The notes: generated from the sequence alone by a model not told the origin. A DNA stretch of 60,773 nt from an uncultured Candidatus Saccharibacteria bacterium (GCA_964598205.1 CAZRBB010000006.1:1-60773), one strand, 5' to 3'; counted from the stretch's first letter, positions 45,308 through 60,773 are shown. Program-made: numbers and translations.

Positions 45308-46123
45308 CTAAGGAGTGCTTTTTTTGTTTAAATCGCCAACAAATTCTTTAATCATTTCTTCCTGAACGCTCATACTATTGGTAATAATAATAAGGTTGTC
45401 TGCTACTGTGTAGTTTAAGGAAACAGCACCGTCTTGACTAAAATTAATAAAGCGACTGTTTTTAAAATGACTGCTAGTGGTGAACTCTTTTTTACCAGAA
45501 ACTTTTACTATGTCGTATTTTTCTCCGATTAAAACGAACTTCTTTAAATCCATCACCATTTCTTTTTCCCATTCTCCAATCAAAGAAGCGTTTTGGGTAG
45601 CCATTTTATTGTTTTTAATCAAAATTGCTTCACTGGGAGCAATATCGTTTGTTCCCCAGTAGATATAAAAAGCTAAGACTTCTATATCTTTAGAAACAGA
45701 ATCTGGAAAATAAACCTTGGCTTTTTGTAAGGCATCCCAAAGCCTAATTGGTTCGTTAGCTGGGGAAAAAAACGAAACTTTTTGTAATTCTTTTTTGACT
45801 CGAGAAAAATGATTCGGCACTTCTGTGGCAAGATCTGTTTTGTCGTTTAAGGTAATTGAAAGAGAAGAAACAGAAGAAGGGGAAGAAGGATCTTCTGTCT
45901 TATTTTGAGAAAAAATGTCTTCTATTTCTCCGCCAGAGCCAGTTTTGGTGCTCCCATTAACTCCGGTTCCATTCTTTGAGGAATTAGGGGAATTGTTACT
46001 CTTTTGGTTCTTATTGGAAATAGAACCTATAACCAAAAGAAGAGCAATTCCCGCTATCCCAAAGGCTAGTCTTTTGATTACCTTTTCCATTCCCTTGCTT
46101 TTGTTTTTGATTTCTTTTTCCAT
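45308..46123 (-). CDS. Membrane-anchored hypothetical protein
   Basis: N-terminal TM helix followed by an S/N/G-rich linker. Confidence 0.7.
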   Translation of the reverse strand: MEKEIKNKSKGMEKVIKRLAFGIAGIALLLVIGSISNKNQKSNNSPNSSKNGTGVNGSTKTGSGGEIEDIFSQNKTEDPSSPSSVSSLSITLNDKTDLATEVPNHFSRVKKELQKVSFFSPANEPIRLWDALQKAKVYFPDSVSKDIEVLAFYIYWGTNDIAPSEAILIKNNKMATQNASLIGEWEKEMVMDLKKFVLIGEKYDIVKVSGKKEFTTSSHFKNSRFINFSQDGAVSLNYTVADNLIIITNSMSVQEEMIKEFVGDLNKKSTP

Positions 46124-47787: not shown

Positions 47788-49455
47788 TTAGTCAAGATAG
47801 TTTTTAACAGTGCACAAGAATTTGTCTTTTAATTTTACCTCCTGATAAGTTAGTGTCGAATTGTCTTCTCGGTTAATAATGGTGGTTTTCTCTTCTCCAA
47901 AAAGATCAATTAATGTTTTTAGGATCAAGGGGTTTGATGTGTTGGTTTTTATGATTCTTATCCCCTCTTGCTTAACTTCTTGAACGATTCTTTTAAAAAG
48001 AACTGTTAATATTTTTTTATTCCAAATTGGTCCATTCCCCCAAGGAGTCTTCAGTTTATTAATATCAAAAATATTCTCATCTTCTATTGCCACAAAATTA
48101 CCGCTTATCGAAATAATATTAGAAAATCGGACAATAAGTTTCTTTTGCTTAACTACTTCTGGAGTAATCTCTTGAACTATCTTTAATTGTTGCTCCGCTG
48201 TTAGAACATCCTCCTTTATTTTATCTGGATAAAGTAAGTGGTAAAAAAGGGGTTTGGGTGGAAGTTCTTTTTTTTGAATTATTCCCTTTATTTCTGTGGC
48301 GGCTCTTTTTCCGCAGTTTCCGTCATTGTAAGAAAATAGATTTTCGCGAATCTTTTTTCTCTCTTTGCGGTAAAAAGAATCTTGATCCAAAAGGGCTTTA
48401 TTAAGAGCCAGTGATAATTCTCCTGGACTATTAATTGTTATTACCTGGCCTTCTTTTTTTATTAACTGCTCAATGCTACCAGAATAAGTAAGCGGTCCTG
48501 ACCAGCCGCGCCGATAAGATTTAACTTTTTTAAAATCAGTATCTAGGAAATCTTTAGACCAAAAATCAGCAACCACAATTGGCTTGTCGGCCAAAATAGT
48601 ATCAAAAATAACGCTGGAATTGTCACTTAGAACAACATCGGCAATCCCTAAGAGAACTAAAAGATCGGTAGAATCATCAAATTTTAGAATTTCTTTTTGG
48701 GAGAATTTGTGCAATCTCTCCTTTTCTTCGTAGACATTGTAGTAGTGGAATTTTATTAAAACATTAAATTTACTGGTCATTTCTCTTAGATTTTCAGCGA
48801 TCAAATCAATAGAAGAGAGATCGCTATGAGTAGGAAGATAGAGCAATGTTTTTTTTAAAGGATCTAGCTGGTTTTTAATTTTTTCTATTAATTCTTGGTC
48901 TAGATTTTTAGAAAACCAGTCGTCGAATTTAGGATTACCAACAACAGCAGAAGAAGTGTATTGAGAGAAAATTGATTGGTCGCGGACTCCATAGGCCAAA
49001 ATTAAATCGAAATTTGCTTTCCAAAATCCAAAAGTGGTGAGCTCTTTGCCACAACCGTAAGGTAGGTGAATCTGTTTTCTATTTTCCCAAACACACGGAA
49101 TCTTTAGGCAACCTCTCCTCCAAACAGAAACTAGAGCTTGATATTTAGAAAAGAATCGCTCTAAAAAACTTAAGTCAAAATAGTCGTTATAATTAAGGAC
49201 TCTAAAATAAACTTTTTCTCTGACCAAGAGAGAAATTAAATTGTCTAATAGATAGGTTGGTTGTTTGACTGGGAAAAAACATCCTAAATCCACAATGAAT
49301 TCCGCTTCTTTAGTTAAATGGCGGTAAATATTTTTGTAAACATAAAATTGGAATGGGTAAACAATCACAAATCCCAAAATAGCTTGGGGGTTGGGATTGT
49401 CTTTGATTTCTTTTTGCTCAAAAGAAACCAAGCTGTTATCTTCTTTGGTAATCAT
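47788..49455 (-). CDS. CDP-glycerol glycerophosphotransferase-family protein (TagF-like)
   Basis: VGNPKFD, LLYLPTH, IKFH, DVVLSDNSSVIFD..KPIV, DGNCGKRAA. Confidence 0.85.
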   Translation of the reverse strand: MITKEDNSLVSFEQKEIKDNPNPQAILGFVIVYPFQFYVYKNIYRHLTKEAEFIVDLGCFFPVKQPTYLLDNLISLLVREKVYFRVLNYNDYFDLSFLERFFSKYQALVSVWRRGCLKIPCVWENRKQIHLPYGCGKELTTFGFWKANFDLILAYGVRDQSIFSQYTSSAVVGNPKFDDWFSKNLDQELIEKIKNQLDPLKKTLLYLPTHSDLSSIDLIAENLREMTSKFNVLIKFHYYNVYEEKERLHKFSQKEILKFDDSTDLLVLLGIADVVLSDNSSVIFDTILADKPIVVADFWSKDFLDTDFKKVKSYRRGWSGPLTYSGSIEQLIKKEGQVITINSPGELSLALNKALLDQDSFYRKERKKIRENLFSYNDGNCGKRAATEIKGIIQKKELPPKPLFYHLLYPDKIKEDVLTAEQQLKIVQEITPEVVKQKKLIVRFSNIISISGNFVAIEDENIFDINKLKTPWGNGPIWNKKILTVLFKRIVQEVKQEGIRIIKTNTSNPLILKTLIDLFGEEKTTIINREDNSTLTYQEVKLKDKFLCTVKNYLD

Positions 49456-49468
49456 ATTTTTGGGAATC

Positions 49469-50148
49469 TTAAGATTTTATTTTTTGCCTAACTTCGGCTA
49501 AATCTTGGGGAAAATCAATTTCTTTGCAAAAAGCTTTCTCAATGTCTACCGGCTTCATTTTAAAACTTTTTTTTAAAAACAAAAGTTCTAAGGCTTGTTC
49601 AAAATAATCTCCATCATTGATTCCTAAAAGTTCTTCTTTGAAAATACCCAGATCGTTCTTTTGAATAAAATAAGCTCCCAAGGACTCCCCTTCTGCTTTC
49701 TTTATTTTTTTAGAAATTCTTGCTAAATAGCCTTCATCACCAAGCAAATATTTCATTTCTTCTCTGCCACATTCCTTTTTATCTACCAAACAGGCATTGC
49801 TTTTTTTTCTAATAATTTTCCCAATAGCCCTTTTTCAAAAAAGACATCTCCGTTTAGCCAAAGAATATCTTCTTCTAATTGATTGACTCCCAAAAGAAGA
49901 CTCTTCCCCGTCTGGGTTCTGGCGTAATTTTCGTTATAAAGAAACTTTAAAAAAGAATATTGATGTGTGAATAATTCTTTTTTATAGCCAGCAATAACAA
50001 TAATCTCCTCTTTTTTAATCCCTGCCTCCACTAATCTTTCTATTTGAAAATCTAAAATAGTTTTTGATTTTTTTAGTGGCACTAAAGCTTTGGGTAGTCC
50101 GGCACCTAAACGACAACCCATGCCTGCAGCTAAAATTATAGCTTTCAT
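49469..50148 (-). pseudogene. LicC-like phosphocholine/NTP cytidylyltransferase split by a frameshift at an A8 run
   Basis: ORF 49783-50148 (MKAIILAAGMG, NGDV) and ORF 49469-49789 (EEMKY, GES, YFE, EIDFPQDL); one extra A at 49801-08 gives a continuous 226-aa protein. Confidence 0.8.
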
Positions 50149-50171
50149 TATTTTAATGTTTGTTTTTGAAA

Positions 50172-51101
50172 TTAAACAGAAGCCGAAGAAAGTAAAGATT
50201 TTATTTCTTTTTTAATTGCATTCACACAATCAGCGCAACTACCATTCTTGATTTGGTTTTTTACCAAAGCATACTTTCTAAATTCAATAAAAGCTGGCAT
50301 TTTTTTTTCGTAGACATCTTGAAAATCTTTTAACTCCCCTAGCTTAATTGGTTCAGCAAAAATACAAGGATGAATTCCAGTAGCGGAAAGACAAAAATTC
50401 TTCCCCTCTAGTCTTGAACAATTCAGGAGATCGGCTTGTTCTTTACCAGGAGGACTGATTACAACCTTCCCTTTATATTTTTCTATTTCTCCCAATAAAG
50501 ATTCGTAGACTGGTGTTAAACTTTTTCCTTGGCGCCTATTCTTGTAATCAACTTCATTTTGAAAATTAAGATTGACTGCTCCTAACGATTCAACGAAGCT
50601 AAAAAATCGGCTAAAGTCACCTTTTTTAGCTAGATTTTCTCCAGACAAAACACAAGTTACGCGCAAATTATGACCGCCTTTGGCAATTAACCTGATTGCT
50701 TCTACTGCTTTATCAAAAGAAGTTCCCTTTCGCATTTTTTCGTGTTCTTCTTTTTTATCGCTGTCTAGGCTCACAGAAAAACTAATTTCTCCTTTAGTGT
50801 TTTCTTCTATAAACTCCAGCCATTCTTTGTTAAAAAGGATTCCGTTAGTTTCAAAAAGAATATTCCATTTTAATTCCTTAATAACCCTGAACAATTCTTT
50901 TAATTGCGAGTACAAAAGAACTTCACCGCCTGTTAACCCCATGCTCCGGTAGCCCAGCTGGTGCGCTTCTTTCATTATTTTTTCTAATTTTGGAAGAGGA
51001 ATTTCTGCCTTTGATTTTTTGCGCAAACAGTAGGCACATTTTAAGTTGCACTTATTAGTTACGATTACGGCAAGGTGGGGATTTCCAAATTTAGGAGGCA
51101 T
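50172..51101 (-). CDS. Radical SAM protein with Twitch/SPASM-like tail
   Basis: CNLKCAYC, TGGE, ETNG, SLDS; C..GIHPC..CADC. Confidence 0.92.
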   Translation of the reverse strand: MPPKFGNPHLAVIVTNKCNLKCAYCLRKKSKAEIPLPKLEKIMKEAHQLGYRSMGLTGGEVLLYSQLKELFRVIKELKWNILFETNGILFNKEWLEFIEENTKGEISFSVSLDSDKKEEHEKMRKGTSFDKAVEAIRLIAKGGHNLRVTCVLSGENLAKKGDFSRFFSFVESLGAVNLNFQNEVDYKNRRQGKSLTPVYESLLGEIEKYKGKVVISPPGKEQADLLNCSRLEGKNFCLSATGIHPCIFAEPIKLGELKDFQDVYEKKMPAFIEFRKYALVKNQIKNGSCADCVNAIKKEIKSLLSSASV

Positions 51102-51117
51102 AAAAATATGTTTATTT

Positions 51118-54084
51118 TTATCTTTCGTTAAACGCTTCGGAAGGAATAGTATCTAAGAAATTAAAATAATCCCTCATTGGTCTTTCTGGAGAAAAAGCCC
51201 AACGACCTTTAATTTGCAAAAGCTTAATATCATTTAAATTAAACTTTTTAAAACTCTTTCCATTGTTCATGCTTTTAAGCAAAAAATCAACTTGCTCTTT
51301 TATACTAGAAAAACACGATAGATCTCCAGGAACAAAAGCCTGAAAATCATCTGTTGTTCCGACTAAGCCAAGTTTTAAATCGTGACCCATATTTTTTAGT
51401 TCTTCCACATTTTGAGCTTTTATCTCTTTTTCTTCTTCTATTAAATAAACAAAAAAAGATAAGCTCCCCAGCTCGGAAAGCCAAATAGGCTTATGTAGGG
51501 AAAAAGAGGAGCAATCATCGGTGATTCTTGGGGTTTCTTTTAAGGCTCTGTTAACGCAATTAAGAACACCATTTAGATAATTCTTTTTATCATTAGAAAA
51601 ATTGCTAAAAGCAAATCCCCTTTTTCTATTAAACCAGCACCCTCTTCTTAATTCTCTTTTATTGATCAAAACAGCGACTCTTCCCTTTTTAACTAAATAT
51701 TTTTTTAAAAACGGTAAGTAACCAAAGCTCCCCCGTTCATCAAAAAGTAAAAAAGGAGTTCTCTTAAAATCAGAAAAAAGAAGTGCGGTAGCCGTATCTT
51801 TGGCGAGTTTGGCAATTTCTATCTCGCTCCTTTTTAAATGTTGAAGATCTTCTTTTTCTATCTCTTCCTTTTCTTCTAGGTAATCTTCTTTTATTTCTTC
51901 TAATCCGGAATAACTCCGGTGATAAACTGGGGAACCATATTTCTTGTACTGATCTTCTTTTTCAAAAGACACTTCTTCTTTCTTTATTTGATCCAGAGAA
52001 GCTATGCAATTATAAGGAATGCCGGCGACATTGCCAAAGTTAAGCTTGGACCCACTGCCAATAACTACTAGGGCTTTTACCAAAATGATTCCATTTTTTT
52101 CAGTAAACTCTTTGGCCCTAGCAATGGTTCTTCCCTTGTTGGTTATATCATCTATAAAAATCGCTTTTTGACCCCGAAAATTACGACTGCCCTCTATTTG
52201 CAAACAAAGATCCCCCATTTTACCTTCTTTTCTAATATAGCAAACTTCTAATTTTTCTCTTGGGAAAAAAACATCGTTTAAGGCTAGAATCGCCCCCATT
52301 ATTGGGAAGCTAGAGGTTTCAAAGCCTATTAAAAGCCTAGGCTGGGACTTGATTTTTCTAATATAATCTAAAAATATTTTGGCAATCAAAGAAATCGGCC
52401 GATCGTACCCAAATATTTCCCGAACATCCATCATGAATGAATTTTCGTTTCCCGGCACTTTCTGGCCATTCTCTACTAAATAATATCTTTCATAAGTTTT
52501 AATCTTATCCGAAAATTCATCTTTTTTAACAAAATAATTAAGTTTGACTGCATACTGTCTTAAATAGTAGAGGACTTCTTTTTCTAGGGCTTCGGTGTTC
52601 CAAGGTGGAGGTAGTAATTCCTTGTCTTTATTGCTTAAGCTAAAATAGCCATTCTCTTTGTGTTCAATGTTTTTTAAGAAAAAATTGGCATTATTCTCCG
52701 CACTTCGATAATCAAAAAAACTTCTTTTCTTTTCCTTGTCTAAAAGGAAAGGAAATAAAAATAAATCTTTTCTGTAAGAAAAAATATTTACTCCTACTCC
52801 CATTTGGAAAAATGGGTTTCCTTTTTCCTCAAAGGAATAGAAAATGGGCTTATTATTTTTAATTTCTGCTGGACAACAATGAACTCCTGAACCAAGAACA
52901 ATATCTACCCCCGACTTGGTAAGAAAATCGGCAAAATCCTGATGTTTTTTTTCAATATTGGCCTCTCCTGCTCCCCAGCGACAAAAAACAATCAATGTTT
53001 TTGCCTCTTTTTTAAACTGCTCAATCTTTTCTTTGAGGTGTGGTTTTTTTTCTTCTTCTTGATATTCGGAATAATTCAAATCCCAAAAACCGATCCTACT
53101 CTGTGCTATTTCTTTGACAATTATCCCCTTACAAGCCAAGGAACTAACAGAAGGATCGTTTAGCTCTTTTATTTTTATTTTCCTATTAAAATAATCAAAG
53201 AATCGACCATTTTCTAGAACCCAGAAAAAACGATGATCGTAAAGAACAATTAGATCCACTCCAATAAAAGTTCTAAAAAAGGCGGGAGAAAAGTCTTGAG
53301 AGAAAAAATCCTGATTATTTTGATTGAAGTAACAAATAACAGAGACTGCTCTTGGGGAGGAATATTTTTCTCCTTTCTTAAAAATAGAATTCAAATAACT
53401 GACCGAGCTTTCCGTGGTTAATCCTTCCCCCAAAAAAGCCGAGTTGCTTTTTCTTATTTTAACCTTAAAAAAGTTTCCTTTTTCTAAATATTTTAAGAGA
53501 AAATATAGAGATTTATTACTATCCCCTTCTATTTTTTGAATTTTATCAAAATCAAAACTCCTAATAGCCGAAGCGCTTATTTGATCGTGAAAATAAGCAA
53601 TTTTTCTTTGCGAATAATGAGAAAAATCAATGCTGGCAACTACTAAAACCTTTTTCTTTTGCGACTCGGCAAAAATAATCTCTGCTAATTGGTCTAGTTT
53701 TTCCCTAGAGCAATCTCTTTTAAAAACCAATGGGACAATTTTTGTATTTGGAAAGTAAATTTTAATTCTACCCGTAAGTGCAAAAATGGAATGTTCTCTG
53801 TAAAAAGTTGCTTCTTCTCTTTGGCAAATTTCCCTTGCTACCAATTTTTTTGCCAGCTCTTGATCTACTTCTAGTATTCCATAATCTGTTTTAAAGGAAT
53901 CAAAAGCCGTTTGGATTTCACCATTACCCAGGCCAAAATGGTTTGGCCCCGCAATTACTACAAGGTCGTATTCTTTTTCTGCCAAGGAAACTTCCTTAAA
54001 AAAGCCATCAATCAATGACTTAGCTATTGGAATATGGTGACAAACAATCCCTCCACCAACTTGTGGCTCTAGCTTATTGTTCAT
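51118..54084 (-). CDS. Fusion: MEMO (AmmeMemoRadiSam B) - CapA-like - PRTase - AMMECR1 (AmmeMemoRadiSam A); likely start 54084
   Basis: GIVCHH, IAGPNH, REHS, ASIDFSHY; WGAGE..GVDIVLGSGVH; FIDDITNKGRT; ELRRGCW..ETPRI..FVPG. Confidence 0.8.
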   Translation of the reverse strand: MNNKLEPQVGGGIVCHHIPIAKSLIDGFFKEVSLAEKEYDLVVIAGPNHFGLGNGEIQTAFDSFKTDYGILEVDQELAKKLVAREICQREEATFYREHSIFALTGRIKIYFPNTKIVPLVFKRDCSREKLDQLAEIIFAESQKKKVLVVASIDFSHYSQRKIAYFHDQISASAIRSFDFDKIQKIEGDSNKSLYFLLKYLEKGNFFKVKIRKSNSAFLGEGLTTESSVSYLNSIFKKGEKYSSPRAVSVICYFNQNNQDFFSQDFSPAFFRTFIGVDLIVLYDHRFFWVLENGRFFDYFNRKIKIKELNDPSVSSLACKGIIVKEIAQSRIGFWDLNYSEYQEEEKKPHLKEKIEQFKKEAKTLIVFCRWGAGEANIEKKHQDFADFLTKSGVDIVLGSGVHCCPAEIKNNKPIFYSFEEKGNPFFQMGVGVNIFSYRKDLFLFPFLLDKEKKRSFFDYRSAENNANFFLKNIEHKENGYFSLSNKDKELLPPPWNTEALEKEVLYYLRQYAVKLNYFVKKDEFSDKIKTYERYYLVENGQKVPGNENSFMMDVREIFGYDRPISLIAKIFLDYIRKIKSQPRLLIGFETSSFPIMGAILALNDVFFPREKLEVCYIRKEGKMGDLCLQIEGSRNFRGQKAIFIDDITNKGRTIARAKEFTEKNGIILVKALVVIGSGSKLNFGNVAGIPYNCIASLDQIKKEEVSFEKEDQYKKYGSPVYHRSYSGLEEIKEDYLEEKEEIEKEDLQHLKRSEIEIAKLAKDTATALLFSDFKRTPFLLFDERGSFGYLPFLKKYLVKKGRVAVLINKRELRRGCWFNRKRGFAFSNFSNDKKNYLNGVLNCVNRALKETPRITDDCSSFSLHKPIWLSELGSLSFFVYLIEEEKEIKAQNVEELKNMGHDLKLGLVGTTDDFQAFVPGDLSCFSSIKEQVDFLLKSMNNGKSFKKFNLNDIKLLQIKGRWAFSPERPMRDYFNFLDTIPSEAFNER

Positions 54085-55039
54085 CTGTAAAATCAAATGA
54101 TTTTTTAGAAAAAAAGTTAGAAAAGGCCAAAGAGCAAGACCAACAATCTCCATTTACATATTCGTCTCCCGTTAAAGCTGCCCTCCTTAAGCTTCCAAGG
54201 CCGGAGACAAAAGAAAAATCAGTGGCAAAGGCCTCTTTGAATCCACAGACCACACATTCTTCCTGGTAAAGGCAGGGATGGAATCCACGAGAAGAAAAAG
54301 TTAGGGCTTTATTGGTTTCTTCTATTTTGGAACAAAAAATCTTATCTCTTATTCCGTAGGTGGTGGGAATATTTATTAAATTTTTATATTTATTACTCAG
54401 AACACTTGCTCTAGAAGAAAAATCAATCATTTCGTTAACCGTTAGGGAATGTTCGCCCCCCTTGTTTCTCCCCAGAGTAACTATTGGGGAAAAAATACAA
54501 TTCGCTGCTCCTTTTTTGATTAAAAAAAGTGCAAAATTTTCCAACTCAACAGTTGGGGGATTATTTAATCGATTAATAACCGTATTTACCGAAAAAGAAT
54601 TACCCCTTTCCTTTAAAATGGAGAGCATTTTAATTGCCTTTTTAAAACTACCAGTACCCCTAAAAAAATCATGAACCTTTTCCTTGTAGCTATCCAAGCT
54701 GACCAAGAAAGAGATCCGAGAAGCAGGGATTAGCCCGAAGAGAGGATGTTTAATGAGTTTTTCAAAGTTCATACCGTTCGTTTCTATAAAAATGGAGAAA
54801 TTTTTTAGAGCAAGAAATTCTAAAATTTCAAAGAATTGTGAGTGGAGAGATGGTTCCCCGCCGGTTAAGGAGCAAGATTTTTTTAATCCAGAAACATCCA
54901 CCTTCCTTGCAATCCTTTTAATCATTTCAAAAGGAACTTCGTCGCTCTTGGAGCTATCGGCCTTGCGTAAACAATAAGTGCAATGCAAGTTGCATTTCCG
55001 AGTTAAGATGATATTAAGAGAAGAAACGGAAAAATCCAT
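54074..55039 (-). CDS. Radical SAM protein with Twitch/SPASM-like tail (paralogue of 50172)
   Basis: CNLHCTYC, TGGEP, ETNG, SLDS..D.FRGTGSF; C..GFHPC..CWSC. Confidence 0.92.
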   Translation of the reverse strand: MDFSVSSLNIILTRKCNLHCTYCLRKADSSKSDEVPFEMIKRIARKVDVSGLKKSCSLTGGEPSLHSQFFEILEFLALKNFSIFIETNGMNFEKLIKHPLFGLIPASRISFLVSLDSYKEKVHDFFRGTGSFKKAIKMLSILKERGNSFSVNTVINRLNNPPTVELENFALFLIKKGAANCIFSPIVTLGRNKGGEHSLTVNEMIDFSSRASVLSNKYKNLINIPTTYGIRDKIFCSKIEETNKALTFSSRGFHPCLYQEECVVCGFKEAFATDFSFVSGLGSLRRAALTGDEYVNGDCWSCSLAFSNFFSKKSFDFTDEQ

Positions 55040-55092: not shown

Positions 55093-55983
55093 ATGCAAGA
55101 AACTAATGACCAAAAAAGAATACTGGAACTAGATTTAACAAGTGTTGGCCATTTTAACGACCTTTTTTTTGGAGTTAAGGAAAAACATTTTGTCTCCTCG
55201 GCTAAACTCTTTGATTTTATTACCCAAAAAAAAGGTTCCTTGAATATTACCACAATTCTTCTTCGAGGATCTGGAGAACCAATGTTCCATCCCGATTTTA
55301 AAAAAATCGTTCGTTTTATTCAAAAAGAAAATATCGGCTTAAATATCTTTACCTTTCCTTATTTACTTAGTGATTATCAAAAAATATTAGGGGAATCATT
55401 TTCTTTGGTTGATTTCTCCTTTTATGTTTACCCCAACAGTGACTATGCCAAAGACTGGACTTTTCACTCTTCTTTTTTAAATGGAGAAAATCAATCACTC
55501 TTTAACCAAATCAGAAAACCATCTTTGTTTTATCTTTTAAACGAAAAGACAAGAGACTGCTTAGATGACTTTATTTGGGAAACAAGCAAAAGAGGTCTTA
55601 CTTTTAATATTTTACGACCAATGGAGAAAGAAAGCATTGTTTCTTCTGGCTTATTATCTAAAGCCAAGAGTCGATTTAAAAAGAATAATATTCATTTGAA
55701 TATTCAATGGGAAGATGGAAAAAATCCTAACTGCCTCTGTTCTTACTTTAGAGATCAAAGAATTTTTATGAATTGTGATAGTCAATTTTCTGTTTGCCAC
55801 TTTCTGCCTTTTTCAGACAAATACACTTTTTCGCCACTAGAAATTAAAGAAAATAATTCAGCGGCCAGTAATTTTTACTCTTTAATAAAAGAAAAAAGGG
55901 AAGAAGAGCGGAAAAAATATTTTATGAATAAAAAATATTTTTGTAGCCCTTGCGATATCTGTTTAAAGGTTTGTAGCAAGTAA
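55093..55983 (-). CDS. Degenerate radical-SAM-fold protein (no CxxxCxxC; auxiliary Cys retained)
   Basis: LELDLTSVGHF where CxxxCxxC is expected; GSGEPMFHPDF; CLC..VC..CSPCDIC tail. Confidence 0.7.
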
Positions 55984-55987
55984 AAAA

Positions 55988-58900
55988 CTAAACAAAAATC
56001 ATCTTTTTCCAAGATTTGATTTTCTTTGTTTTTTCCAAAAGCATTAGTGCCAATAAACCATAGTGACTGTATAGCCCTGTGGCTACTTGGTCTTTTGCGT
56101 TGCCAGCAAATCCTCCATTTTTAAAACAGCCTTTTAAGAATTCTTGGTGTCCTGGGTGCCTCTTTAGGTTTTCTCCTAAAATTTCTAGAGCTTGAATTGC
56201 AAAGTAAGTTGATTGAATTCCTGCTTCCTCCTTTGGAAAATGAGAAAAGCCACCGGTATCATTATTTTCACACAGATAAATAAACTTTTTTAATTCAGCT
56301 AGCTTGCTTGTAAACAAAGAGCAATCGGCTTGAGGATGCATCTTTTCTATGATTTTACAAGAAACAATCTGACGATAAACATCATAAAGAACCGTCCGGC
56401 TGTTTTTATAAGCCGAATCAAAAACCGAAAGAATTCCGCTAACTAACCTTTCTGGTATTTTTATATCTAAAAGATAGTGCAATAGAATAAGATAATAAAT
56501 TTCTACCGTCTCTCCTTCCTTTATTTTTTGCTCCAATCTTCCTTCTAAACTAGGAATAATGGCTTCTTTGGGTAAACCATACCCCAAAAGAGACAATGTT
56601 TTTATAAACCAATAATTCACTTTTTCTACAGAATGAAATCTAAAAGAATCCGTACAAAAGGCTTTTTCTTTTAAATATTTTTCTATTAAGAAAGCTAAAT
56701 AGTCCTTTTCTTTCTGACAATCCTTGTTTGTTTGTGAAGATCGAGAAAGAAGATTCCAGTAGCTAGCCAAGAAAACTAAATTAGTAAAGCTATGCCCCGA
56801 AAAACCACCGGTATCGCATTTTAAGGCAAGCACTTCTTTGATTATTTCTTCTTTATTAATATCTCTCCCTAAGAATTTATTAAACTTTATGTATTTTAGA
56901 GTGCCTGGAAAATCGTTTTTAACATTTGGTTTTGGCCATTGATGATTAATGCTTAAGCTGTGAAAATCATTGAATCTCAGTAGCGAAAGAATTTCTAATG
57001 TGGCGAGTGTTTCTTCGAAACTAAGGGTGTTTTCTTCTTTTTCTATTTTTTTGGAAAAGAATAAGAGTGACTCTGTTTTTTCTTCTTCGCTTAACGAATT
57101 AAGCTCTAAAAGAATTCCCATAATCTTTTTTTTGTTTTCTAGATCTAAACTTTCATTATAAAGAAACCTCTTTAAATAAGTTACCGTTTCTTTTTCAATG
57201 TCTTTAAAGCCGATATTAATTAAAGAAGAGACCCACAAAATTGTTGCCTCAAGAGACGATCCGCCACCAAATAATCCGTAACTGCCGCCGGAATTCAAAA
57301 AACTTTTAGCATAGTTAATAATCCCCAACTGATTTTTAGGCTTTATTCCTAGCAGATGGCAAGAAACCGTTACGCTGTGGTTGGTGGCACACCAAGGAAC
57401 ATGCCCTGGCCATTCACCAAAGCCGACTTCCCCCATTTGCAAGGAAAGAAGCCATTTCTCTGTGTCGGGAAAATCGAATTTATAATCCAACTCTTTTAAT
57501 ATTTCTAAACATTGACGAGTAGTTTCGTGGCAAGGAATCTTTCTTTTTGTTTCAAAATTTTTGTTAACGGAAAAATCTTCAATTTCTATTTTTTCTAAGA
57601 AATTTTCAATTGTCTCGGGAAGGGTGAGATTACTATCTCCTTCCTCTGCTAAATCATAACTAATTAGCGCATCCTCCTTGGCTTCTTCTTGGGGATTTGA
57701 CCTATTATAAGGGCAACCCTCTCTTTTAGCATTAACATAGCTGTCTAAAATATCCCATTTAGTAGGCGATTTTCTTTTTAATTCTTCTGGCCAAAGAAGA
57801 TAAAAAACAAAAGACTCGGCCAAGTCCTCCGCACCACTAAAAGCATAAAAACTAACGGCTATTTTTTTCTTTTCTTCAATAGTTTTTTCTTTTCCGAGAA
57901 TTTTATCCCCATCAACAAAATATTCCCAATCCTCTAAAAGCTCTTTTCCTTTTGGAATAGATCCTAAGAAAAGATGCATCATTTCGTGAGCAATGGTGGC
58001 TTTTAAATTATCCAGATCCCAAATGCGGTATCCTTCTTCCCGAAAAACGAAAGGATAGAGAGTAATTCTTTTTTCTTTAATGCTGGCCATTCCTCTAGAT
58101 AAAGGAGTCAGTCTGATTCTTTCTTCCCTATCGTAATCGTTTTCTCCAGGATAGATTGCCTTAGCACAATGATTGGGGCAATCTTTTTCTTCTATTATTA
58201 TTTCTTCTATTAGGTCTTTAAAGAGAGGGTTTAAGTTAAGAATAAGACTCAAAATATTAGCTATCTTTTCTAAATAAACATCGGTAAGTAAAACTGATTT
58301 TGATTTTACTTGAATCTTCTTTTCTTGTTTTACTAGATTAATAATTTTAAAATCTTTTAGATTTTCTGTTCTACCTTCCTCTTCTTTTTTGGAAAAATCA
58401 CCTAAAAGCAGGCAACCGGAACAGTTAAAAATTCCGCTTTTTTTAATTTTTTCTTGAATTGGCTTTAGCTTGGTGTCTACGGTTCTAGCAAAGCTAAAAA
58501 AATCAAAATCCTTATCTTCTTTATTAATAACCAAGTCTGCTTCTTCTTTGCCAAAATAAGGGCAAAAATTTAATTTGTAATTATAGTCTAAAAATAAATC
58601 AGCTCCTTCCAAGTAACTGCATAAATGCTTTCTTCCCTCTCCTCCTAAGGAAAAAAAGGTTTCTTTTTTAAACCCTTCTTTAAAAAGAAGTTTTTCCCAT
58701 CTTACGATTTGCTCCTTGGAAGGAAGATAGTTTTTAAGTCCTTCCGGAAGAGATCCTAAAAAAGAGAGATCTTTAAAAAACCAAAGATCGGGCCCAACTA
58801 ATTCCAAAAAATCATTCATTCTTACTACTGTTTCCAAAAAATTATGCTTTCCTAAATAAATCCTTACTCCTATTTTTTTCTTCCTTTTCTTAGCTTCCAT

Positions 58901-59281
58901 TAAAAAGTCAATTTTCCTTTTTAAACTGCCCTTTGATTCAAAAATATTATCCGTTCTTTTTTGAATGCCATATAGATTAACGCTAAGAAAATTTAGAGAA
59001 GCATTGTTCCAAAAAGCAAACTCCTGATCGTTTTTTAAAAAAGAAATCTCCATTTCTACTGTAAATTCGTTTTCTTCTAAAAAAGAAAGCAGTTCCTTTA
59101 TTTTGGAATAGCCCAAGGGATTATTTAGGAGCCTGATTCTTTTTAAACCATTGGCGCGAGCGCTTTTTAGGAAGCGCAAAAGCCATTCAAAATCAATTTC
59201 TATTGATTTTGGTTGATTAAAAAAATAATAATCCCTTTGATTGTTTAGGTCTAAAAGTAAAATATAGGACATTAATCCCAA
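55988..59281 (-). CDS. 1097-aa fusion: degenerate rSAM/Twitch - zincin metallopeptidase - prenyltransferase/squalene-cyclase-type repeats
   Basis: HLC..FC..CSGC; HEMMH (57974-88) plus EDLAESF; repeated xGGF/Y units (NSGGSYG, DTGGFSG, DTGGFSHFP..STYFAIQAL, NGGFAG). Confidence 0.75.
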   Translation of the reverse strand: MGLMSYILLLDLNNQRDYYFFNQPKSIEIDFEWLLRFLKSARANGLKRIRLLNNPLGYSKIKELLSFLEENEFTVEMEISFLKNDQEFAFWNNASLNFLSVNLYGIQKRTDNIFESKGSLKRKIDFLMEAKKRKKKIGVRIYLGKHNFLETVVRMNDFLELVGPDLWFFKDLSFLGSLPEGLKNYLPSKEQIVRWEKLLFKEGFKKETFFSLGGEGRKHLCSYLEGADLFLDYNYKLNFCPYFGKEEADLVINKEDKDFDFFSFARTVDTKLKPIQEKIKKSGIFNCSGCLLLGDFSKKEEEGRTENLKDFKIINLVKQEKKIQVKSKSVLLTDVYLEKIANILSLILNLNPLFKDLIEEIIIEEKDCPNHCAKAIYPGENDYDREERIRLTPLSRGMASIKEKRITLYPFVFREEGYRIWDLDNLKATIAHEMMHLFLGSIPKGKELLEDWEYFVDGDKILGKEKTIEEKKKIAVSFYAFSGAEDLAESFVFYLLWPEELKRKSPTKWDILDSYVNAKREGCPYNRSNPQEEAKEDALISYDLAEEGDSNLTLPETIENFLEKIEIEDFSVNKNFETKRKIPCHETTRQCLEILKELDYKFDFPDTEKWLLSLQMGEVGFGEWPGHVPWCATNHSVTVSCHLLGIKPKNQLGIINYAKSFLNSGGSYGLFGGGSSLEATILWVSSLINIGFKDIEKETVTYLKRFLYNESLDLENKKKIMGILLELNSLSEEEKTESLLFFSKKIEKEENTLSFEETLATLEILSLLRFNDFHSLSINHQWPKPNVKNDFPGTLKYIKFNKFLGRDINKEEIIKEVLALKCDTGGFSGHSFTNLVFLASYWNLLSRSSQTNKDCQKEKDYLAFLIEKYLKEKAFCTDSFRFHSVEKVNYWFIKTLSLLGYGLPKEAIIPSLEGRLEQKIKEGETVEIYYLILLHYLLDIKIPERLVSGILSVFDSAYKNSRTVLYDVYRQIVSCKIIEKMHPQADCSLFTSKLAELKKFIYLCENNDTGGFSHFPKEEAGIQSTYFAIQALEILGENLKRHPGHQEFLKGCFKNGGFAGNAKDQVATGLYSHYGLLALMLLEKTKKIKSWKKMIFV

Positions 59282-59754
59282 GTCAAAAGTTTATAAGAAG
59301 ACTGTCTTTCACCGAATCGATACATTCTGCCAATAATCTTGGCAATTATCTTGTCTTTTTTAATTGGACCAAAAACCCTAGAATCTTGACTCCCTCCCCG
59401 ATTATCTCCTAAAACTAAAAATTCATTTGTTCCTAATTCCCAATAAAAATTACCGAGCGGCTTATCCTTAATGTAGGATTCTTCTAGAATAGTTTTTTGA
59501 CCATCTTGTTCTATAGTAATAAAACCATCTTTATATTCTACTTTTTCCTTGGGTAGTCCAATGACTCGCTTTAACATCTTACCTCCTGTTTTTGTTGGAT
59601 TCCAAAAAAGGATTATTTCTTTTCTCTTTATTTCTTCTTCTTTCTTAATATCTCTAAAAGCAAAAAAATCACCATTATTGTAAAAAGGTTTCATACTTTC
59701 TCCGTTTACCATGTCTACAAAATACTCTTTCATTAATTCTTTAAATAGCGACAC
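59272..59754 (-). CDS. Signal peptidase I (S26)
   Basis: GESMKP (catalytic Ser), LKRVIGLP (Lys), LGDNRGGSQDSRVFG. Confidence 0.92.
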   Translation of the reverse strand: MSLFKELMKEYFVDMVNGESMKPFYNNGDFFAFRDIKKEEEIKRKEIILFWNPTKTGGKMLKRVIGLPKEKVEYKDGFITIEQDGQKTILEESYIKDKPLGNFYWELGTNEFLVLGDNRGGSQDSRVFGPIKKDKIIAKIIGRMYRFGERQSSYKLLTWD

Positions 59755-60619: not shown

Positions 60620-60633
60620 ATCTTCTTGTAAGC

Positions 60634-60773
60634 TTAAATACCGGAAGATCCGCAAGCTTGACTGCCTCCACAGGCTTCACAAGCTTGATCGGAAGAGCCA
60701 GCTGAACCGGAAGAGTCAGCTGCGCCTGAAGATCCGCAAGCTTGACTGCCTCCGCAAGCTTCACAAGCTTGAT
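60634..60773 (-). CDS. 3' end of a Cys/Ser/Gly-rich repeat ORF, candidate RiPP precursor, 5'-truncated: QACEACGGSQACGSSGAADSSGSAGSSDQACEACGGSQACGSSGI*
   Basis: Open from the window edge to TAA at 60634-36; all four differences between repeat copies are synonymous third positions in this frame; 14 nt upstream of the rSAM start. Confidence 0.85.
   Translation of the reverse strand, partial: QACEACGGSQACGSSGAADSSGSAGSSDQACEACGGSQACGSSGI
60644..60773. repeat. 46-bp direct repeat with 84-bp period (60644-89; 60728-73)
   Basis: GAAGATCCGCAAGCTTGACTGCCTCC(A/G)CA(G/A)GCTTCACAAGCTTGAT; two mismatches. Confidence 0.95.

What the first reader, a model, noticed from the sequence alone, without database searches (positions are those of the whole stretch)
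51118..54084. MEMO-CapA-PRTase-AMMECR1 four-domain fusion between two rSAM genes
Seen: MEMO motifs (HH, GPNH, EHS, DFSHY), a degenerate CapA-like part, a type I PRTase motif (FIDDITNKGRT) and an AMMECR1-like C-terminus (LRRGCW..ETPRI..FVPG). Known: AMMECR1, MEMO and an rSAM form the uncharacterised AmmeMemoRadiSam triad. Inference: both partners are fused with a PRTase here, suggesting nucleotide or phosphoribosyl chemistry. This is a lead on the triad's function and ties it to a peptide cluster.
Basis: partly seen in the sequence, partly recalled or inferred. Interest (0 to 1): 0.66.

Follow-up and report, generated by a model that had tools for sequence, protein, structure and literature searches.

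The report
Four-domain Memo–CapA–PRTase–AMMECR1 fusion protein
A real, so far unique 988-residue protein of a lake-water bacterium (probably candidate phyla radiation) joins a Memo domain, a crippled CapA domain, a PRPP-type phosphoribosyltransferase and a divergent AMMECR1 domain; its PRTase-AMMECR1 half belongs to a rare family that always sits beside genes for aspartate-rich repeat proteins, which points to an undescribed protein-modification pathway.

Summary
Window 51118-54084 (-) is one intact 988-aa ORF, reproduced base for base in independent assemblies from three studies. It has four domains. Memo is strong. CapA/PGA_cap is only the C-terminal half, with catalytic motifs lost. The OPRT-like type I PRTase keeps its PRPP loop and RKxxK loop. 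The AMMECR1 domain gives no hit from the window sequence alone but is confirmed by family consensus (46.6 bits) and by fold (Foldseek top 5 all AMMECR1). Two conserved radical SAM genes flank it. No other four-domain protein turned up among 1.84 billion representatives.

It is not the canonical AmmeMemoRadiSam triad. The AMMECR1 part misses TIGR04335's cut-off and has Phe for the signature Cys. The rSAMs are MoaA/SPASM-like. The motif 'LRRGCW' is not the AMMECR1 signature.

The PRTase-AMMECR1 half is a rare family of its own: 7 of 185,579 species genomes plus soil metagenomes. It is always preceded by a (Thr/Ser-Asp)n repeat-protein gene and usually followed by an Asp beta-hydroxylase, a Stealth-like phosphotransferase or both.

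My best reading is a PRPP-dependent step in modifying an Asp/Ser/Gly-rich repeat polypeptide. In this reading rSAM plus Memo replace the oxygenases in the anaerobic lineage. The chemistry is inferred, not shown.

The parts
51118..54084 (-). Whole ORF: 988-aa Memo / CapA-like / PRTase / AMMECR1-like protein (stop codon 51118-51120)
   Evidence: Identical in independent assemblies. It is the only such architecture found.
53335..54084 (-). Memo domain (residues 1-250). Motifs HH, GPNH, EHS and DFSH are invariant across 13 homologues.
   Evidence: PF01875 76.7 bits and TIGR04336 87 bits. Alignment A2. The family profile hits human MEMO1 3bcz at E 1.7e-8.
52675..53322 (-). Degenerate CapA/PGA_cap (calcineurin-like) domain (residues 255-470). 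The N-terminal GD, NLE and ANNH motifs are absent, HWG is changed to RWG, and GHHPHV is changed to GSGVHCC.
   Evidence: PF09587 44.6 bits over profile positions 121-247 only. A2 compared with intact Patescibacteria homologues. MslH catalytic residues taken from PMC10406935.
51970..52599 (-). OPRT-like type I phosphoribosyltransferase domain with a family-specific N-terminal extension (residues 496-705). It keeps the flexible loop IRKEGK...IEGS and the PRPP loop FIDDITNKGRT. The OPRT 'DR' orotate-binding Arg is absent.
51844..51969 (-). Glu/Lys-rich linker (residues 706-747)
   Evidence: Not conserved in A1. Low pLDDT.
51160..51843 (-). Divergent AMMECR1-fold domain (residues 748-975). Family invariants are HKPIW, ELGSLSFF and GRW..PERP. 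The canonical RGC reads RGF here.
54074..55039 (-). Upstream radical SAM protein (321 aa), conserved partner (37% identity to L004 rSAM318)
50172..51101 (-). Downstream radical SAM protein (309 aa), conserved partner (44% identity to L004 rSAM323, 34% to L001 rSAM333)
49469..50148 (-). IspD/MobA-like nucleotidyltransferase gene, split by a frameshift into 121-aa and 106-aa ORFs
   Evidence: The frameshift is present in independent assemblies.
47788..49455 (-). TagF-like CDP-glycerol glycerophosphotransferase-family protein (555 aa), 47% identical to the L001 neighbour
55093..55983 (+). 296-aa ORF on the opposite strand, homologous to the C-terminal half of the L004 605-aa rSAM protein. It has no CxxxCxxC motif.
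55988..59281 (-). 1097-aa fusion of an rSAM-like N-terminus without the Cys motif, an HEMMH metalloprotease-like motif and a prenyltransferase/squalene-cyclase-like alpha-alpha toroid
59272..59754 (-). S26 signal-peptidase-I-like protein (160 aa)
59741..60655 (-). First radical SAM gene of the operon. The likely true start is the ATG at 60619 (MPRILIAPSYNCNSYCPYCY).
60634..60773 (-). 3' end of a repetitive ORF running off the window: ...QACEACGGSQACGSSGAADSSGSAGSSDQACEACGGSQACGSSGI*. It is the candidate substrate polypeptide.
   Evidence: Contig depth jumps 5-18 fold from 60716 on, and assemblies break there.
45308..46123 (-). 271-aa membrane-anchored protein conserved in the related CPR clusters (L001 249 aa, L004 282 aa)

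Best explanation
Shown: the ORF encodes one real polypeptide. It is a Rosetta-stone fusion of two genes that are separate neighbours in related candidate-phyla-radiation clusters. One is [OPRT-like PRTase + divergent AMMECR1]; the other is [Memo + degenerate CapA]. Two conserved radical SAM enzymes flank them.

Shown: the PRTase-AMMECR1 half is a rare family of its own. It is genomically coupled to Asp-rich low-complexity repeat proteins, and either to enzymes that form phosphodiester-linked glycans (Stealth-like in soil bacteria, TagF-like plus cytidylyltransferase here) or to a family of unknown function (F2).

Inferred: the protein works in the post-translational elaboration of a repetitive Asp/Ser/Thr/Gly(/Cys)-rich polypeptide encoded at the head of the operon. 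The PRTase domain, whose PRPP-binding and catalytic loops are intact but whose orotate site is lost, uses PRPP to transfer ribose-5-phosphate. The acceptor would be a side chain of the repeat, or a group already attached to it. The AMMECR1-like domain provides the substrate cleft.

Inferred: the Memo metal centre and the flanking rSAM enzymes supply oxygen-independent C-H functionalisation. In aerobic relatives an Asp beta-hydroxylase and 2OG/Fe oxygenases would do that job. The CapA remnant is a non-catalytic scaffold or peptide-binding module. The TagF-like enzyme then extends the modification with phosphodiester-linked units.
For: Architecture and reality of the fusion.

The two halves are separate adjacent genes, in the opposite order, in three related CPR contexts. 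The same rSAM partners are present in all three; the TagF-like and NTP_transferase genes in L001-L003 only; the 250-aa membrane-protein gene in L001, L002 and L004-L005 (a 249-aa ORF on the P0045 contig was not compared). Sources.

The PRTase looks catalytically competent. The RKxxK flexible loop, IEG, and the DD..N.G PRPP loop are conserved across 9 family members and align with bona fide PRTases. The OPRT 'DR' is replaced.

PRTase and AMMECR1-like always travel together, as adjacent genes (L010, L011) or fused.

A (T/S)D-repeat ORF lies directly upstream on the same strand in all 7 genome loci. It is also found in every metagenome locus with about 450 nt or more of upstream sequence. No such repeat occurs in control loci L006 and L007 or in the rest of the 60-kb window.

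The downstream gene carries PF05118 Asp/Asn beta-hydroxylase (E 1e-39 to 1e-43), a domain whose profile hits only Stealth-family sugar-1-phosphate transferases in the PDB (GNPTAB, CpsY), or both. A 2OG-Fe(II) oxygenase is also nearby.

CPR clusters carry analogous low-complexity Asp/Gly/Ser tails. The window's repetitive ORF is at multi-copy depth. L004 has ...GDGDGDGDGA* and L001 has a DSDNPDSDDSS/TTGG tail.

There is a precedent for a PRTase-fold enzyme transferring Ribf-5-P from PRPP to a hydroxyl and working with a TagF-like enzyme and a phosphatase: CriT/CroT/CrpP of Bcs3 (PMC10299916). There is also a precedent for a CapA-family protein binding a ribosomal peptide: MslH (PMC10406935).
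Against: No biochemical data exist for any member. Every functional step is guilt by association.

The window's repeat ORF is Cys/Gly/Ser-rich with few Asp, so it is not a (T/S)D repeat. It lies 6.5 kb from the fusion gene, and its 5' part is unknown.

Soil relatives lack Memo and rSAM. The 'rSAM + Memo replaces oxygenases' idea therefore rests on mutual exclusion in a small sample.

PRPP-dependent modification of a protein side chain has no known precedent; I found none in the held literature. By sequence the PRTase domain is closer to OPRT than to CriT, and no Bcs3 hit appeared.

The window protein has lost the AMMECR1 signature Cys, and its nucleotidyltransferase neighbour is frameshifted. 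The pathway in this genome may therefore be altered or partly decayed.
Confidence: 0.42

Rival explanations
1. Small-molecule or nucleotide pathway. The rSAM enzymes and Memo build or modify a heterocyclic or aromatic acid. The OPRT-like domain converts it with PRPP into a ribonucleotide. The AMMECR1-like domain binds that nucleotide. The peptide genes nearby are unrelated or only regulatory.
For: The PRTase is closest to orotate PRTases, which make N-glycosidic bonds to free bases. The AMMECR1 RAGNYA fold was proposed to bind nucleotides or nucleic acids and to act with an rSAM enzyme on a base modification (PMC2034487). From memory, and not retrievable here, Burroughs et al. 2019 (J Biol Chem) linked Memo contexts to nucleotide-base and isoprenoid modification.
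Against: The orotate-binding Arg is lost. The only universal neighbour of the PRTase-AMMECR1 module is a repeat-protein gene, not a base-synthesis gene. Asp beta-hydroxylase, Stealth-like, peptidase and signal-peptidase neighbours point to a polypeptide or glycan.
Confidence: 0.2
2. Teichoic-acid-like glycopolymer synthesis that is not protein-linked. The PRTase acts like CriT of the Hib capsule polymerase, adding ribofuranose-5-phosphate from PRPP to a glycan or lipid acceptor. The TagF-like enzyme and the cytidylyltransferase add polyol-phosphate. The CapA remnant derives from the phosphatase step. Memo, AMMECR1 and the rSAMs decorate the polymer.
For: An IspD-like nucleotidyltransferase and a TagF-like gene lie directly downstream in the window and in L001-L003. 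A Stealth-like phosphotransferase sits next to the module in soil bacteria. The published parallel is CriT (PRTase-like fold, PRPP donor) + CrpP + CroT (PMC10299916).
Against: No sequence similarity to Bcs3/CriT was detected. CapA here lacks its metal and catalytic motifs, so no phosphatase activity is expected. L004 shows no TagF or NTP_transferase on its 10.8-kb contig. The nucleotidyltransferase is frameshifted in the window. This reading does not explain the invariant repeat-protein gene or the Asp beta-hydroxylase.
Confidence: 0.18
3. An ordinary AmmeMemoRadiSam housekeeping system that happens to be fused, with a PRTase domain added by chance and no functional coupling.
For: The Memo part passes TIGR04336. 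Homologues are annotated 'AmmeMemoRadiSam system protein B'. Memo-AMMECR1 gene fusions were already noted in 2007 (PMC2034487).
Against: The AMMECR1-like part fails TIGR04335, and the signature Cys is absent. The rSAMs are not of the TIGR04337 type. PRTase-AMMECR1 coupling is conserved across four phyla, so it is not chance. The common 600-aa Patescibacteria Memo-CapA proteins carry that annotation without any AMMECR1 or rSAM neighbour.
Confidence: 0.05
4. A decaying or artefactual gene: a chimeric assembly or a pseudogene read-through.
For: The CapA part is degenerate. The neighbouring nucleotidyltransferase is frameshifted. The cluster shows rearrangements, namely an inverted rSAM fragment and other fusions.
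Against: The sequence is identical in independent assemblies from three studies at 10-15x depth. An uninterrupted 2,967-nt ORF at 34% GC is unlikely without selection. The window sequence keeps the invariant positions of the PRTase and AMMECR1-like families.
Confidence: 0.03

Closest known systems
AmmeMemoRadiSam system (NCBIfam TIGR04335 AMMECR1-type protein A, TIGR04336 Memo-type protein B, TIGR04337 radical SAM)
   Same: It combines a Memo domain, an AMMECR1-fold domain and adjacent radical SAM enzymes. The Memo part passes TIGR04336 (87 bits against a cut-off of 26).
   Different: The AMMECR1-like part is a divergent subfamily: its consensus scores 35 bits against a cut-off of 99, and the window sequence gives no hit. 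The signature Cys is Phe. The rSAM partners are MoaA/Rv1681/SPASM-maturase-like, not TIGR04337. Extra CapA and PRTase domains are present. The cluster also holds peptidases, a toroid protein and a repeat ORF.
Memo-AMMECR1 gene fusions and neighbourhoods described by Balaji & Aravind 2007 (PMC2034487)
   Same: AMMECR1 is fused or adjacent to the ring-opening-dioxygenase-like (Memo) gene and linked to an rSAM enzyme.
   Different: That paper proposed an RNA base modification with a catalytic Cys in RGChG and a DxRa motif. Here RGC reads RGF, DxRa is not conserved, and the tightest partner is a PRTase.
Orotate phosphoribosyltransferase (PyrE, type I PRTase)
   Same: It is the best sequence match (TIGR00336 E 1.2e-7; PDB 2yzk E 6e-5). 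The two share the RKxxK flexible loop, IEG and the acidic PRPP loop.
   Different: The score is far below the equivalog cut-off (31.6 against 106.8). The orotate-binding Arg of the 'DR' motif is absent. The PRPP loop has Asn-x-Gly instead of Thr-Thr-Gly. There is a 70-residue family-specific N-terminal extension, and the domain is fused to AMMECR1.
CriT-CrpP-CroT of the Haemophilus influenzae type b capsule polymerase Bcs3 (PMC10299916)
   Same: A PRTase-fold enzyme uses PRPP and works beside a TagF-like phosphotransferase, a cytidylyltransferase-made donor and a phosphoesterase-type domain.
   Different: No detectable sequence similarity to Bcs3. The phosphoesterase-type domain here is CapA/calcineurin-like and inactive, not HAD. 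The context includes Memo, AMMECR1, rSAM enzymes and a repeat polypeptide.
MslH, lasso-peptide C-terminal epimerase (PGA_cap/calcineurin-like; PDB 8GQ9; PMC10406935)
   Same: It is the only solved structure matched by the CapA part of the family profile (E 3.5e-18). It is a CapA-family protein that binds a ribosomal precursor peptide.
   Different: The window lacks the equivalents of MslH's Asp11, Glu44, Asn87/His88/Asp91 and His259, so neither epimerase nor phosphoesterase chemistry is expected.
About 600-aa membrane-anchored Memo-PGA_cap proteins of Patescibacteria (P0002-P0041)
   Same: They show the same Memo + CapA order and are 28-44% identical over the N-terminal half.
   Different: They have an N-terminal transmembrane segment and intact CapA motifs. 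They have no PRTase or AMMECR1 and no AMMECR1 or rSAM neighbours.
Protein phosphoglycosylation by Stealth-family enzymes (GNPTAB-type), and Asp beta-hydroxylation of ribosomal peptides (from general knowledge)
   Same: In the soil clade, a Stealth-like domain and an Asp/Asn beta-hydroxylase flank the PRTase-AMMECR1 gene next to an Asp/Ser/Thr repeat protein.
   Different: No PRTase or AMMECR1 is known in those systems. The window itself has a TagF-like enzyme and rSAMs instead.

Membership tests
Memo (Pfam PF01875) | Score above the gathering threshold | tested here: met
   76.7 bits against 27, residues 33-197.
Memo (Pfam PF01875) | Conserved His/Asp metal-site motifs (HH, GPNH, EHS, DFSH) | tested here: met
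   Invariant across 13 aligned homologues including the window (A2). Mapping onto the human MEMO1 site was not displayed residue by residue.
AmmeMemoRadiSam system | Protein B passes TIGR04336 | tested here: met
   87 bits against a cut-off of 26, profile positions 61-216 of 270.
AmmeMemoRadiSam system | Protein A passes TIGR04335 | tested here: not met
   The window gives no hit. The family consensus scores 35.2 bits and P0042 scores 19.3 bits, against a cut-off of 99.
AmmeMemoRadiSam system | The partner radical SAM enzyme is of the TIGR04337 type | tested here: not met
   For both flanking rSAMs the 25 best NCBIfam hits are Rv1681, MoaA, WgkB, ScmF and other SPASM maturases, all far below their cut-offs. 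TIGR04337 is not among them (the list is truncated at 25).
AMMECR1 (Pfam PF01871) | The window's own sequence passes the gathering threshold | tested here: not met
   No hit at E <= 10.
AMMECR1 (Pfam PF01871) | Family-level sequence match | tested here: met
   The consensus of 10 members scores 46.6 bits, E 3.6e-12, over model positions 2-162 of 168. P0042 scores 28.7 and P0043 scores 25.7 against a gathering score of 25.
AMMECR1 (Pfam PF01871) | AMMECR1 fold (two interlocked RAGNYA domains, as in 1VAJ, 1WSC and 1ZQ7) | tested here: met
   AF2 model with pLDDT 80.9 and pTM 0.80. The Foldseek top 5 are all AMMECR1 at prob 1.00 and E about 1e-7, with TM 0.42-0.63; the next hit has E 0.05.
AMMECR1 (Pfam PF01871) | RGChG signature with the proposed catalytic Cys (PMC2034487) | tested here: not met
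   The family motif is NRxRGC. Seven of 10 members have Cys. The window has RGF, P0044 has RGA and P0045 has RGY.
AMMECR1 (Pfam PF01871) | DxRa signature | tested here: not met
   The corresponding stretch reads ARKV, SPRL or TPRI, with no conserved Asp. The correspondence is inferred from motif order, not from a displayed HMM alignment.
PGA_cap / CapA (Pfam PF09587) | Score above the gathering threshold | tested here: met
   44.6 bits against 27, but only profile positions 121-247 of 255.
PGA_cap / CapA (Pfam PF09587) | Calcineurin-like metal and catalytic residues (GD, NLE, NNH..D, H.H, GHxPH; MslH numbering in PMC10406935) | tested here: not met
   The GD, NLE and ANNH blocks are missing. 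HWG is changed to RWG and GHHPHV to GSGVHCC (A2).
Type I phosphoribosyltransferase (Pfam PF00156) | Score above the gathering threshold | tested here: inconclusive
   25.8 bits against 26.3, so narrowly below. Corroboration: TIGR00336 at E 1.2e-7, PDB OPRTs at E 6e-5 and 1e-5, and a family profile that recovers PRTases at E down to 1e-10.
Type I phosphoribosyltransferase (Pfam PF00156) | PRPP-binding loop (hydrophobic run, two acidic residues, then a small-residue loop) | tested here: met
   AIFIDDITNKGRT. D-D, N and G are invariant in the family.
Type I phosphoribosyltransferase (Pfam PF00156) | PRTase fold | tested here: met
   Foldseek ranks 6-50 are all HGPRT, APRT or OPRT at prob 1.00. 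The model is of low confidence, with pLDDT 46 overall and 55-70 in this domain.
Orotate PRTase (TIGR00336 equivalog) | Equivalog cut-off and orotate-binding Arg | tested here: not met
   31.6 bits against 106.8. The OPRT 'VDR' aligns to 'IGSGS'.
CriT-type PRPP-dependent ribofuranosyltransferase (Bcs3) | Sequence relationship to Bcs3 CriT | tested here: not met
   No Bcs3 chain appears among the PDB sequence hits at E <= 10.
RiPP-type peptide maturation cluster | A precursor peptide gene and peptide-modifying rSAM/SPASM and protease genes in one operon | tested here: inconclusive
   A repetitive Cys/Gly/Ser ORF heads the operon but is cut off by the window end. An S26 peptidase, an HExxH motif and SPASM-like rSAMs are present. 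No leader or core could be defined.

The most novel reading that the evidence does not exclude
The PRTase-AMMECR1 module catalyses a new kind of post-translational modification. PRPP-dependent phosphoribosylation of Asp, beta-hydroxy-Asp, Ser or Thr in dipeptide-repeat proteins would prime a phosphodiester-linked glycan. The AMMECR1 fold would be the polypeptide-binding catalytic partner. Aerobes reach the same product with an Asp beta-hydroxylase, and anaerobic CPR bacteria with radical SAM enzymes plus Memo. This would give the first biochemical handle on the AMMECR1 and Memo superfamilies.
Probability: 0.22. Interest if true: 0.88.

Novelty: new variant of a known kind. Interest (0 to 1): 0.66.

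Why it matters
AMMECR1 and Memo are ancient, widespread domains found from archaea to humans, and no reaction is known for either. AMMECR1 is on the published priority list of uncharacterised archaeal proteins (PMC6393860).

This locus fuses both domains to a PRPP-type transferase. Following that fusion uncovered a rare family with very consistent neighbours: a repeat protein, then PRTase-AMMECR1, then usually an Asp beta-hydroxylase, a Stealth-like domain or both. It occurs in MAGs of phyla that have cultivated representatives.

That turns an open question into a concrete experiment with a defined candidate substrate. If the inferred chemistry is right, it would be a new protein modification. 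It would also be an example of aerobic and anaerobic enzyme sets converging on one pathway.

There is also an annotation point. Many Patescibacteria Memo-CapA proteins are named 'AmmeMemoRadiSam system protein B' although no such system is nearby.

Tried and rejected
- Direct Pfam and NCBIfam scans of the window's C-terminal 241-260 aa gave nothing.
- Profile-versus-PDB sequence searches with A1 and A3 found no AMMECR1 chain. Only the consensus-versus-Pfam search and the fold comparison worked.
- The first AF2 run, on the 489-aa C-half with 5 sequences, was poor (pLDDT 46). I used it only as weak support for the PRTase fold.
- The first genome-contig scan, with PRTase-region patterns, found nothing.
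- phmmer of the Memo region alone against the PDB found nothing at E <= 0.01; the family profile was needed.
- A search for Cys-rich small ORFs in related CPR loci found none. The related loci have Asp/Gly/Ser-rich tails instead.
- Tandem Repeats Finder saw no array at the window end, because less than two full DNA units are present.
- Literature searches for a characterised AmmeMemoRadiSam or AMMECR1 function, or for PRPP-dependent peptide modification, returned nothing relevant. Burroughs et al. 2019 is not held.
- I considered the 54153 start. It has an SD-like GGGAG and a hydrophobic N-terminus, but it overlaps the rSAM by 80 nt and disagrees with the homologues, so I set it aside.
- I rejected the idea that the fusion arose by simple stop-codon loss, because the gene order in relatives is the reverse.

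Full report
OBSERVATION

On the minus strand, window 51118-54084 is a single ORF of 988 codons plus stop.

A longer start at 54153 has an SD-like GGGAG. It would overlap the upstream radical SAM gene by 80 nt and add a segment that no homologue has.

Contigs assembled independently from lake and freshwater metagenome runs of three different studies are identical to the window over 49400-54200, with 0 mismatches and 0 gaps at 10-15x depth. The fusion is therefore real DNA, not a chimeric assembly.

DOMAINS

(1) Memo, residues 1-250. PF01875 scores 76.7 bits and TIGR04336 scores 87 bits. The HH, GPNH, EHS and DFSH motifs are invariant in 13 homologues.

(2) CapA/PGA_cap, residues about 255-470. 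The score is 44.6 bits, but only the C-terminal half of the model matches. I compared it with the roughly 600-aa Patescibacteria Memo-CapA proteins, which keep GD, NLEG, ANNH, HWG.EY and GHHPHV. The window has lost the first three blocks and reads RWG and GSGVHCC. The only solved structure the family profile hits is MslH, a Ca-dependent lasso-peptide epimerase. Its catalytic residues fall in exactly those blocks. The CapA part is therefore very probably non-catalytic.

(3) PRTase, residues 496-705. Pfam Pribosyltran scores 25.8 bits, just below the 26.3 threshold. The assignment is corroborated by:
- pyrE at E 1.2e-7;
- OPRT structures at E 6e-5;
- a family profile that recovers hundreds of PRTases out of 1.84 billion representatives;
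- Foldseek ranks 6-50, all PRTases, though on a low-confidence model.

An alignment with bona fide PRTases shows the D.R block, the RKxxK flexible loop, IEG and the DD PRPP loop all conserved. The OPRT 'DR', whose Arg binds orotate, is gone. I infer an active PRPP-using enzyme with a different acceptor.

(4) AMMECR1-like, residues 748-975. The window sequence alone gives no hit. A profile of the family finds no AMMECR1 chain in the PDB by sequence. However:
- two relatives pass the Pfam threshold;
- the consensus of ten members scores 46.6 bits, E 3.6e-12, over almost the whole model;
- an AF2 model of the window domain (pLDDT 80.9, pTM 0.80) matches only the three AMMECR1 crystal structures at probability 1.00, with a 10^5-fold E-value gap to the next hit.

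One correction is needed. The published AMMECR1 signature RGChG (PMC2034487) corresponds to the family motif NRxRGC. There the window has RGF, while 7 of 10 relatives keep Cys. 'LRRGCW' lies eight residues upstream and is a coincidence.

HOW UNUSUAL IS IT?

Searching 5.8 billion clusters with the full protein returns about 40 Memo-CapA proteins of 560-720 aa from Patescibacteria, and no other protein that covers the C-terminal half. The C-half has four two-domain relatives of 488-504 aa.

An exhaustive profile search of 1.84 billion representatives finds only 8 proteins below E 1e-30. They are two-domain proteins, stand-alone AMMECR1-like proteins and stand-alone PRTases of the same family. 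No second four-domain protein appears.

Only 7 of 185,579 species genomes encode the family: four Acidobacteriota, one Verrucomicrobiia and two Actinomycetes MAGs.

CONTEXT IN RELATED CPR BACTERIA

In three related low-GC contexts the two halves are separate adjacent genes, in the opposite order: [PRTase-AMMECR1] then [Memo-CapA' of 430-475 aa]. Orthologues of the window's two flanking rSAM genes accompany them (34-44% identity). Depending on the contig, they also have:
- a membrane-anchored 250-aa protein (30-33% identity) in L001 and L004;
- the TagF-like gene (47%) and the IspD-like nucleotidyltransferase in L001;
- the alpha-alpha toroid protein in L004.

The window protein is therefore a Rosetta-stone fusion that needed a rearrangement, not a lost stop codon. 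The same cluster shows other fusions and an inversion: the 1097-aa protein, and the plus-strand rSAM fragment.

The abundant 600-aa Patescibacteria Memo-CapA proteins are a different thing. They are membrane-anchored, have an intact CapA, and have no AMMECR1 or rSAM neighbour.

IS IT THE AMMEMEMORADISAM TRIAD?

Only in outline. Memo passes TIGR04336. The AMMECR1-like family reaches 35 bits against TIGR04335's cut-off of 99, and only as a consensus. The flanking rSAMs resemble Rv1681, MoaA and SPASM peptide maturases, and TIGR04337 is not among their best 25 hits. I therefore do not file it as a member of that system.

THE WIDER FAMILY GIVES THE BEST FUNCTIONAL CLUE

A metagenome scan gave 27 loci, of which 26 are at 51-66% GC, mostly from soil and peat. 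None has Memo, rSAM or TagF homologues of the window nearby.

Upstream gene. Every locus with enough upstream sequence, and all seven genome loci, has a gene directly upstream on the same strand for a protein with long (Thr-Asp)n or (Ser-Asp)n repeats. None occurs in the control loci or in the other 60 kb of the window. These repeat proteins come in three forms:
- a tail-anchored-looking form ending GSCDCCCC...MVAMVSNVALTAIAAI;
- a form in which the repeats and a Gly-rich stretch precede a Hint autoprocessing domain;
- a form ending directly in the (Thr/Ser-Asp) repeats (L010/L028 with a Thr/Gly-rich tail; L025/L027 after a DUF1036 domain).

Downstream gene. It encodes one of the following:
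- an Asp/Asn beta-hydroxylase (PF05118, E 1e-39 to 1e-43);
- a 260-aa domain whose profile hits only Stealth-family sugar-1-phosphate transferases in the PDB (GNPTAB, fly GNPTAB, CpsY);
- both of these fused;
- a 322-aa family of unknown function.

A 2OG-Fe(II) oxygenase is often nearby.

The CPR clusters carry analogous low-complexity genes. L004 begins inside ...GDGDGDGDGA* upstream of the orthologue of the window's first rSAM. L001 has a protein ending in DSDNPDSDDSS/TTGG repeats. The window ends inside ...QACEACGGSQACGSSGAADSSGSAGSSDQACEACGGSQACGSSGI*, whose stop lies 14 nt before the probable ATG of the first rSAM gene. At that point contig depth jumps 5-18 fold and all assemblies break, so the repeat unit is present in many copies.

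MECHANISM

Shown:
- an intact four-domain protein;
- a PRTase with preserved PRPP and catalytic loops;
- an AMMECR1 fold;
- a dead CapA;
- conserved rSAM partners;
- invariant coupling of PRTase-AMMECR1 to Asp-rich repeat proteins, and frequent coupling to phosphodiester-forming transferases.

Inferred: the module performs a PRPP-dependent step, most simply transfer of ribose-5-phosphate, on the repeat polypeptide or on a group attached to it. The AMMECR1-like cleft would hold the substrate.

Inferred: in aerobes an Asp beta-hydroxylase and 2OG oxygenases prepare the side chain. In the anaerobic CPR lineage the rSAM enzymes and the Memo metal centre do so.

Inferred: Stealth-like enzymes (soil) or TagF-like enzymes plus a cytidylyltransferase (CPR) then add phosphodiester-linked units.

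Two precedents make the individual steps plausible. CriT of the Hib capsule polymerase has a PRTase-like fold, transfers Ribf-5-P from PRPP to a hydroxyl, and works with a TagF-like enzyme (PMC10299916). MslH shows that a CapA-family protein can bind a ribosomal peptide (PMC10406935).

I put this at about 0.4. The main rivals are a base-to-nucleotide pathway (0.2) and a glycopolymer that is not protein-linked (0.18).

Weak points:
- there is no biochemistry for any member;
- the window's own repeat ORF is Cys/Gly/Ser-rich rather than (T/S)D;
- there is no precedent for PRPP-dependent protein modification;
- the window copy has lost the AMMECR1 Cys and has a frameshifted nucleotidyltransferase neighbour.

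NOVELTY AND VERDICT

Memo-AMMECR1-rSAM neighbourhoods and Memo-AMMECR1 fusions have been known since 2007, and Memo-CapA fusions are common in Patescibacteria.

What is new:
- the PRTase-AMMECR1 family;
- its fusion to Memo-CapA in this one organism;
- its consistent link to Asp-rich repeat proteins, an Asp beta-hydroxylase and a Stealth-like enzyme.

I found no description of any of these in the held literature.

I rate it a new variant of a known kind, interest 0.66. There is about a 0.2 chance that it marks a categorically new protein modification.

Noticed in passing
window 60634-60773 (-), running off the window end: A repetitive Cys/Gly/Ser-rich ORF (...QACEACGGSQACGSSGAADSSGSAGSSDQACEACGGSQACGSSGI*) ends 14 nt before the likely ATG (60619) of the first rSAM gene. 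Contig depth jumps from about 12-17x to 60-310x at 60716, and every assembly breaks there, so the unit is highly repeated.
   Followed up: partly
window 49469-50148 (-): The IspD/MobA-like nucleotidyltransferase gene is split by a frameshift near codon 112, when compared with the 243-aa L001 orthologue. The frameshift is present in independent assemblies, so it is either a pseudogene or a programmed shift.
   Followed up: partly
window 55988-59281 (-) and 55093-55983 (+): The 1097-aa protein fuses an rSAM-like N-terminus without the CxxxCxxC motif, an HEMMH metalloprotease-like motif and a prenyltransferase/squalene-cyclase-like toroid. The plus-strand 296-aa ORF is the inverted C-terminal half of what is a single 605-aa rSAM protein in L004. 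The cluster has been rearranged and its genes fused repeatedly.
   Followed up: partly
P0002-P0041; loci L006, L007: About 600-aa membrane-anchored Memo-CapA proteins with intact CapA motifs are common in Patescibacteria. Public records name them 'AmmeMemoRadiSam system protein B', yet the two contexts I examined have no AMMECR1 or radical SAM neighbour. This looks like over-propagated annotation.
   Followed up: partly
L018, L020, L022, L036, L040 (ORFs upstream of the PRTase-AMMECR1 gene): These soil-bacterial repeat proteins share an architecture: Asp-rich dipeptide repeats (GD, TD, SD; PE in L022), then Gly-Lys/Gly-Ser repeats, then a conserved C-terminus GSCDCCCC(A/S)A..MVAMVS(N/Q)VALTAIAAI..K. 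That C-terminus looks like a Cys cluster followed by a hydrophobic tail anchor.
   Followed up: no
L021, L023, L024, L029, L033, L044, L046 (ORFs upstream of the PRTase-AMMECR1 gene): A second type of repeat protein has a helical N-domain, a Pro-rich region, (TD)n, a Gly/Asp-rich stretch ending GGGG, and then Cys plus a Hint/PT-HINT autoprocessing domain. That arrangement would release or transfer the repeat-bearing fragment at its C-terminal Gly.
   Followed up: no
window 45308-46123 (-); L001 15871-16620; L004 9353-10201: A 250-280-aa protein with an N-terminal membrane anchor and a conserved FVLIGEKYD...SSG motif accompanies the cluster in all three CPR lineages. It has no family assignment.
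   Followed up: no
L029 3025-3993 and six other loci (family F2): A conserved 315-322-aa protein with no Pfam or NCBIfam hit replaces the Stealth-like/AspH gene directly downstream of PRTase-AMMECR1 in seven loci. It contains an LDCDTFFFDD stretch, which may indicate a GT-A-like glycosyltransferase.
   Followed up: partly
window 54085-54153 (-): An alternative upstream ATG with an SD-like GGGAG would add a hydrophobic 23-residue N-terminus (MEIVGLALWPFLTFFLKNHLILQ) to the fusion protein, but it overlaps the rSAM gene by 80 nt. I judged it unlikely from the homologues' starts.
   Followed up: partly
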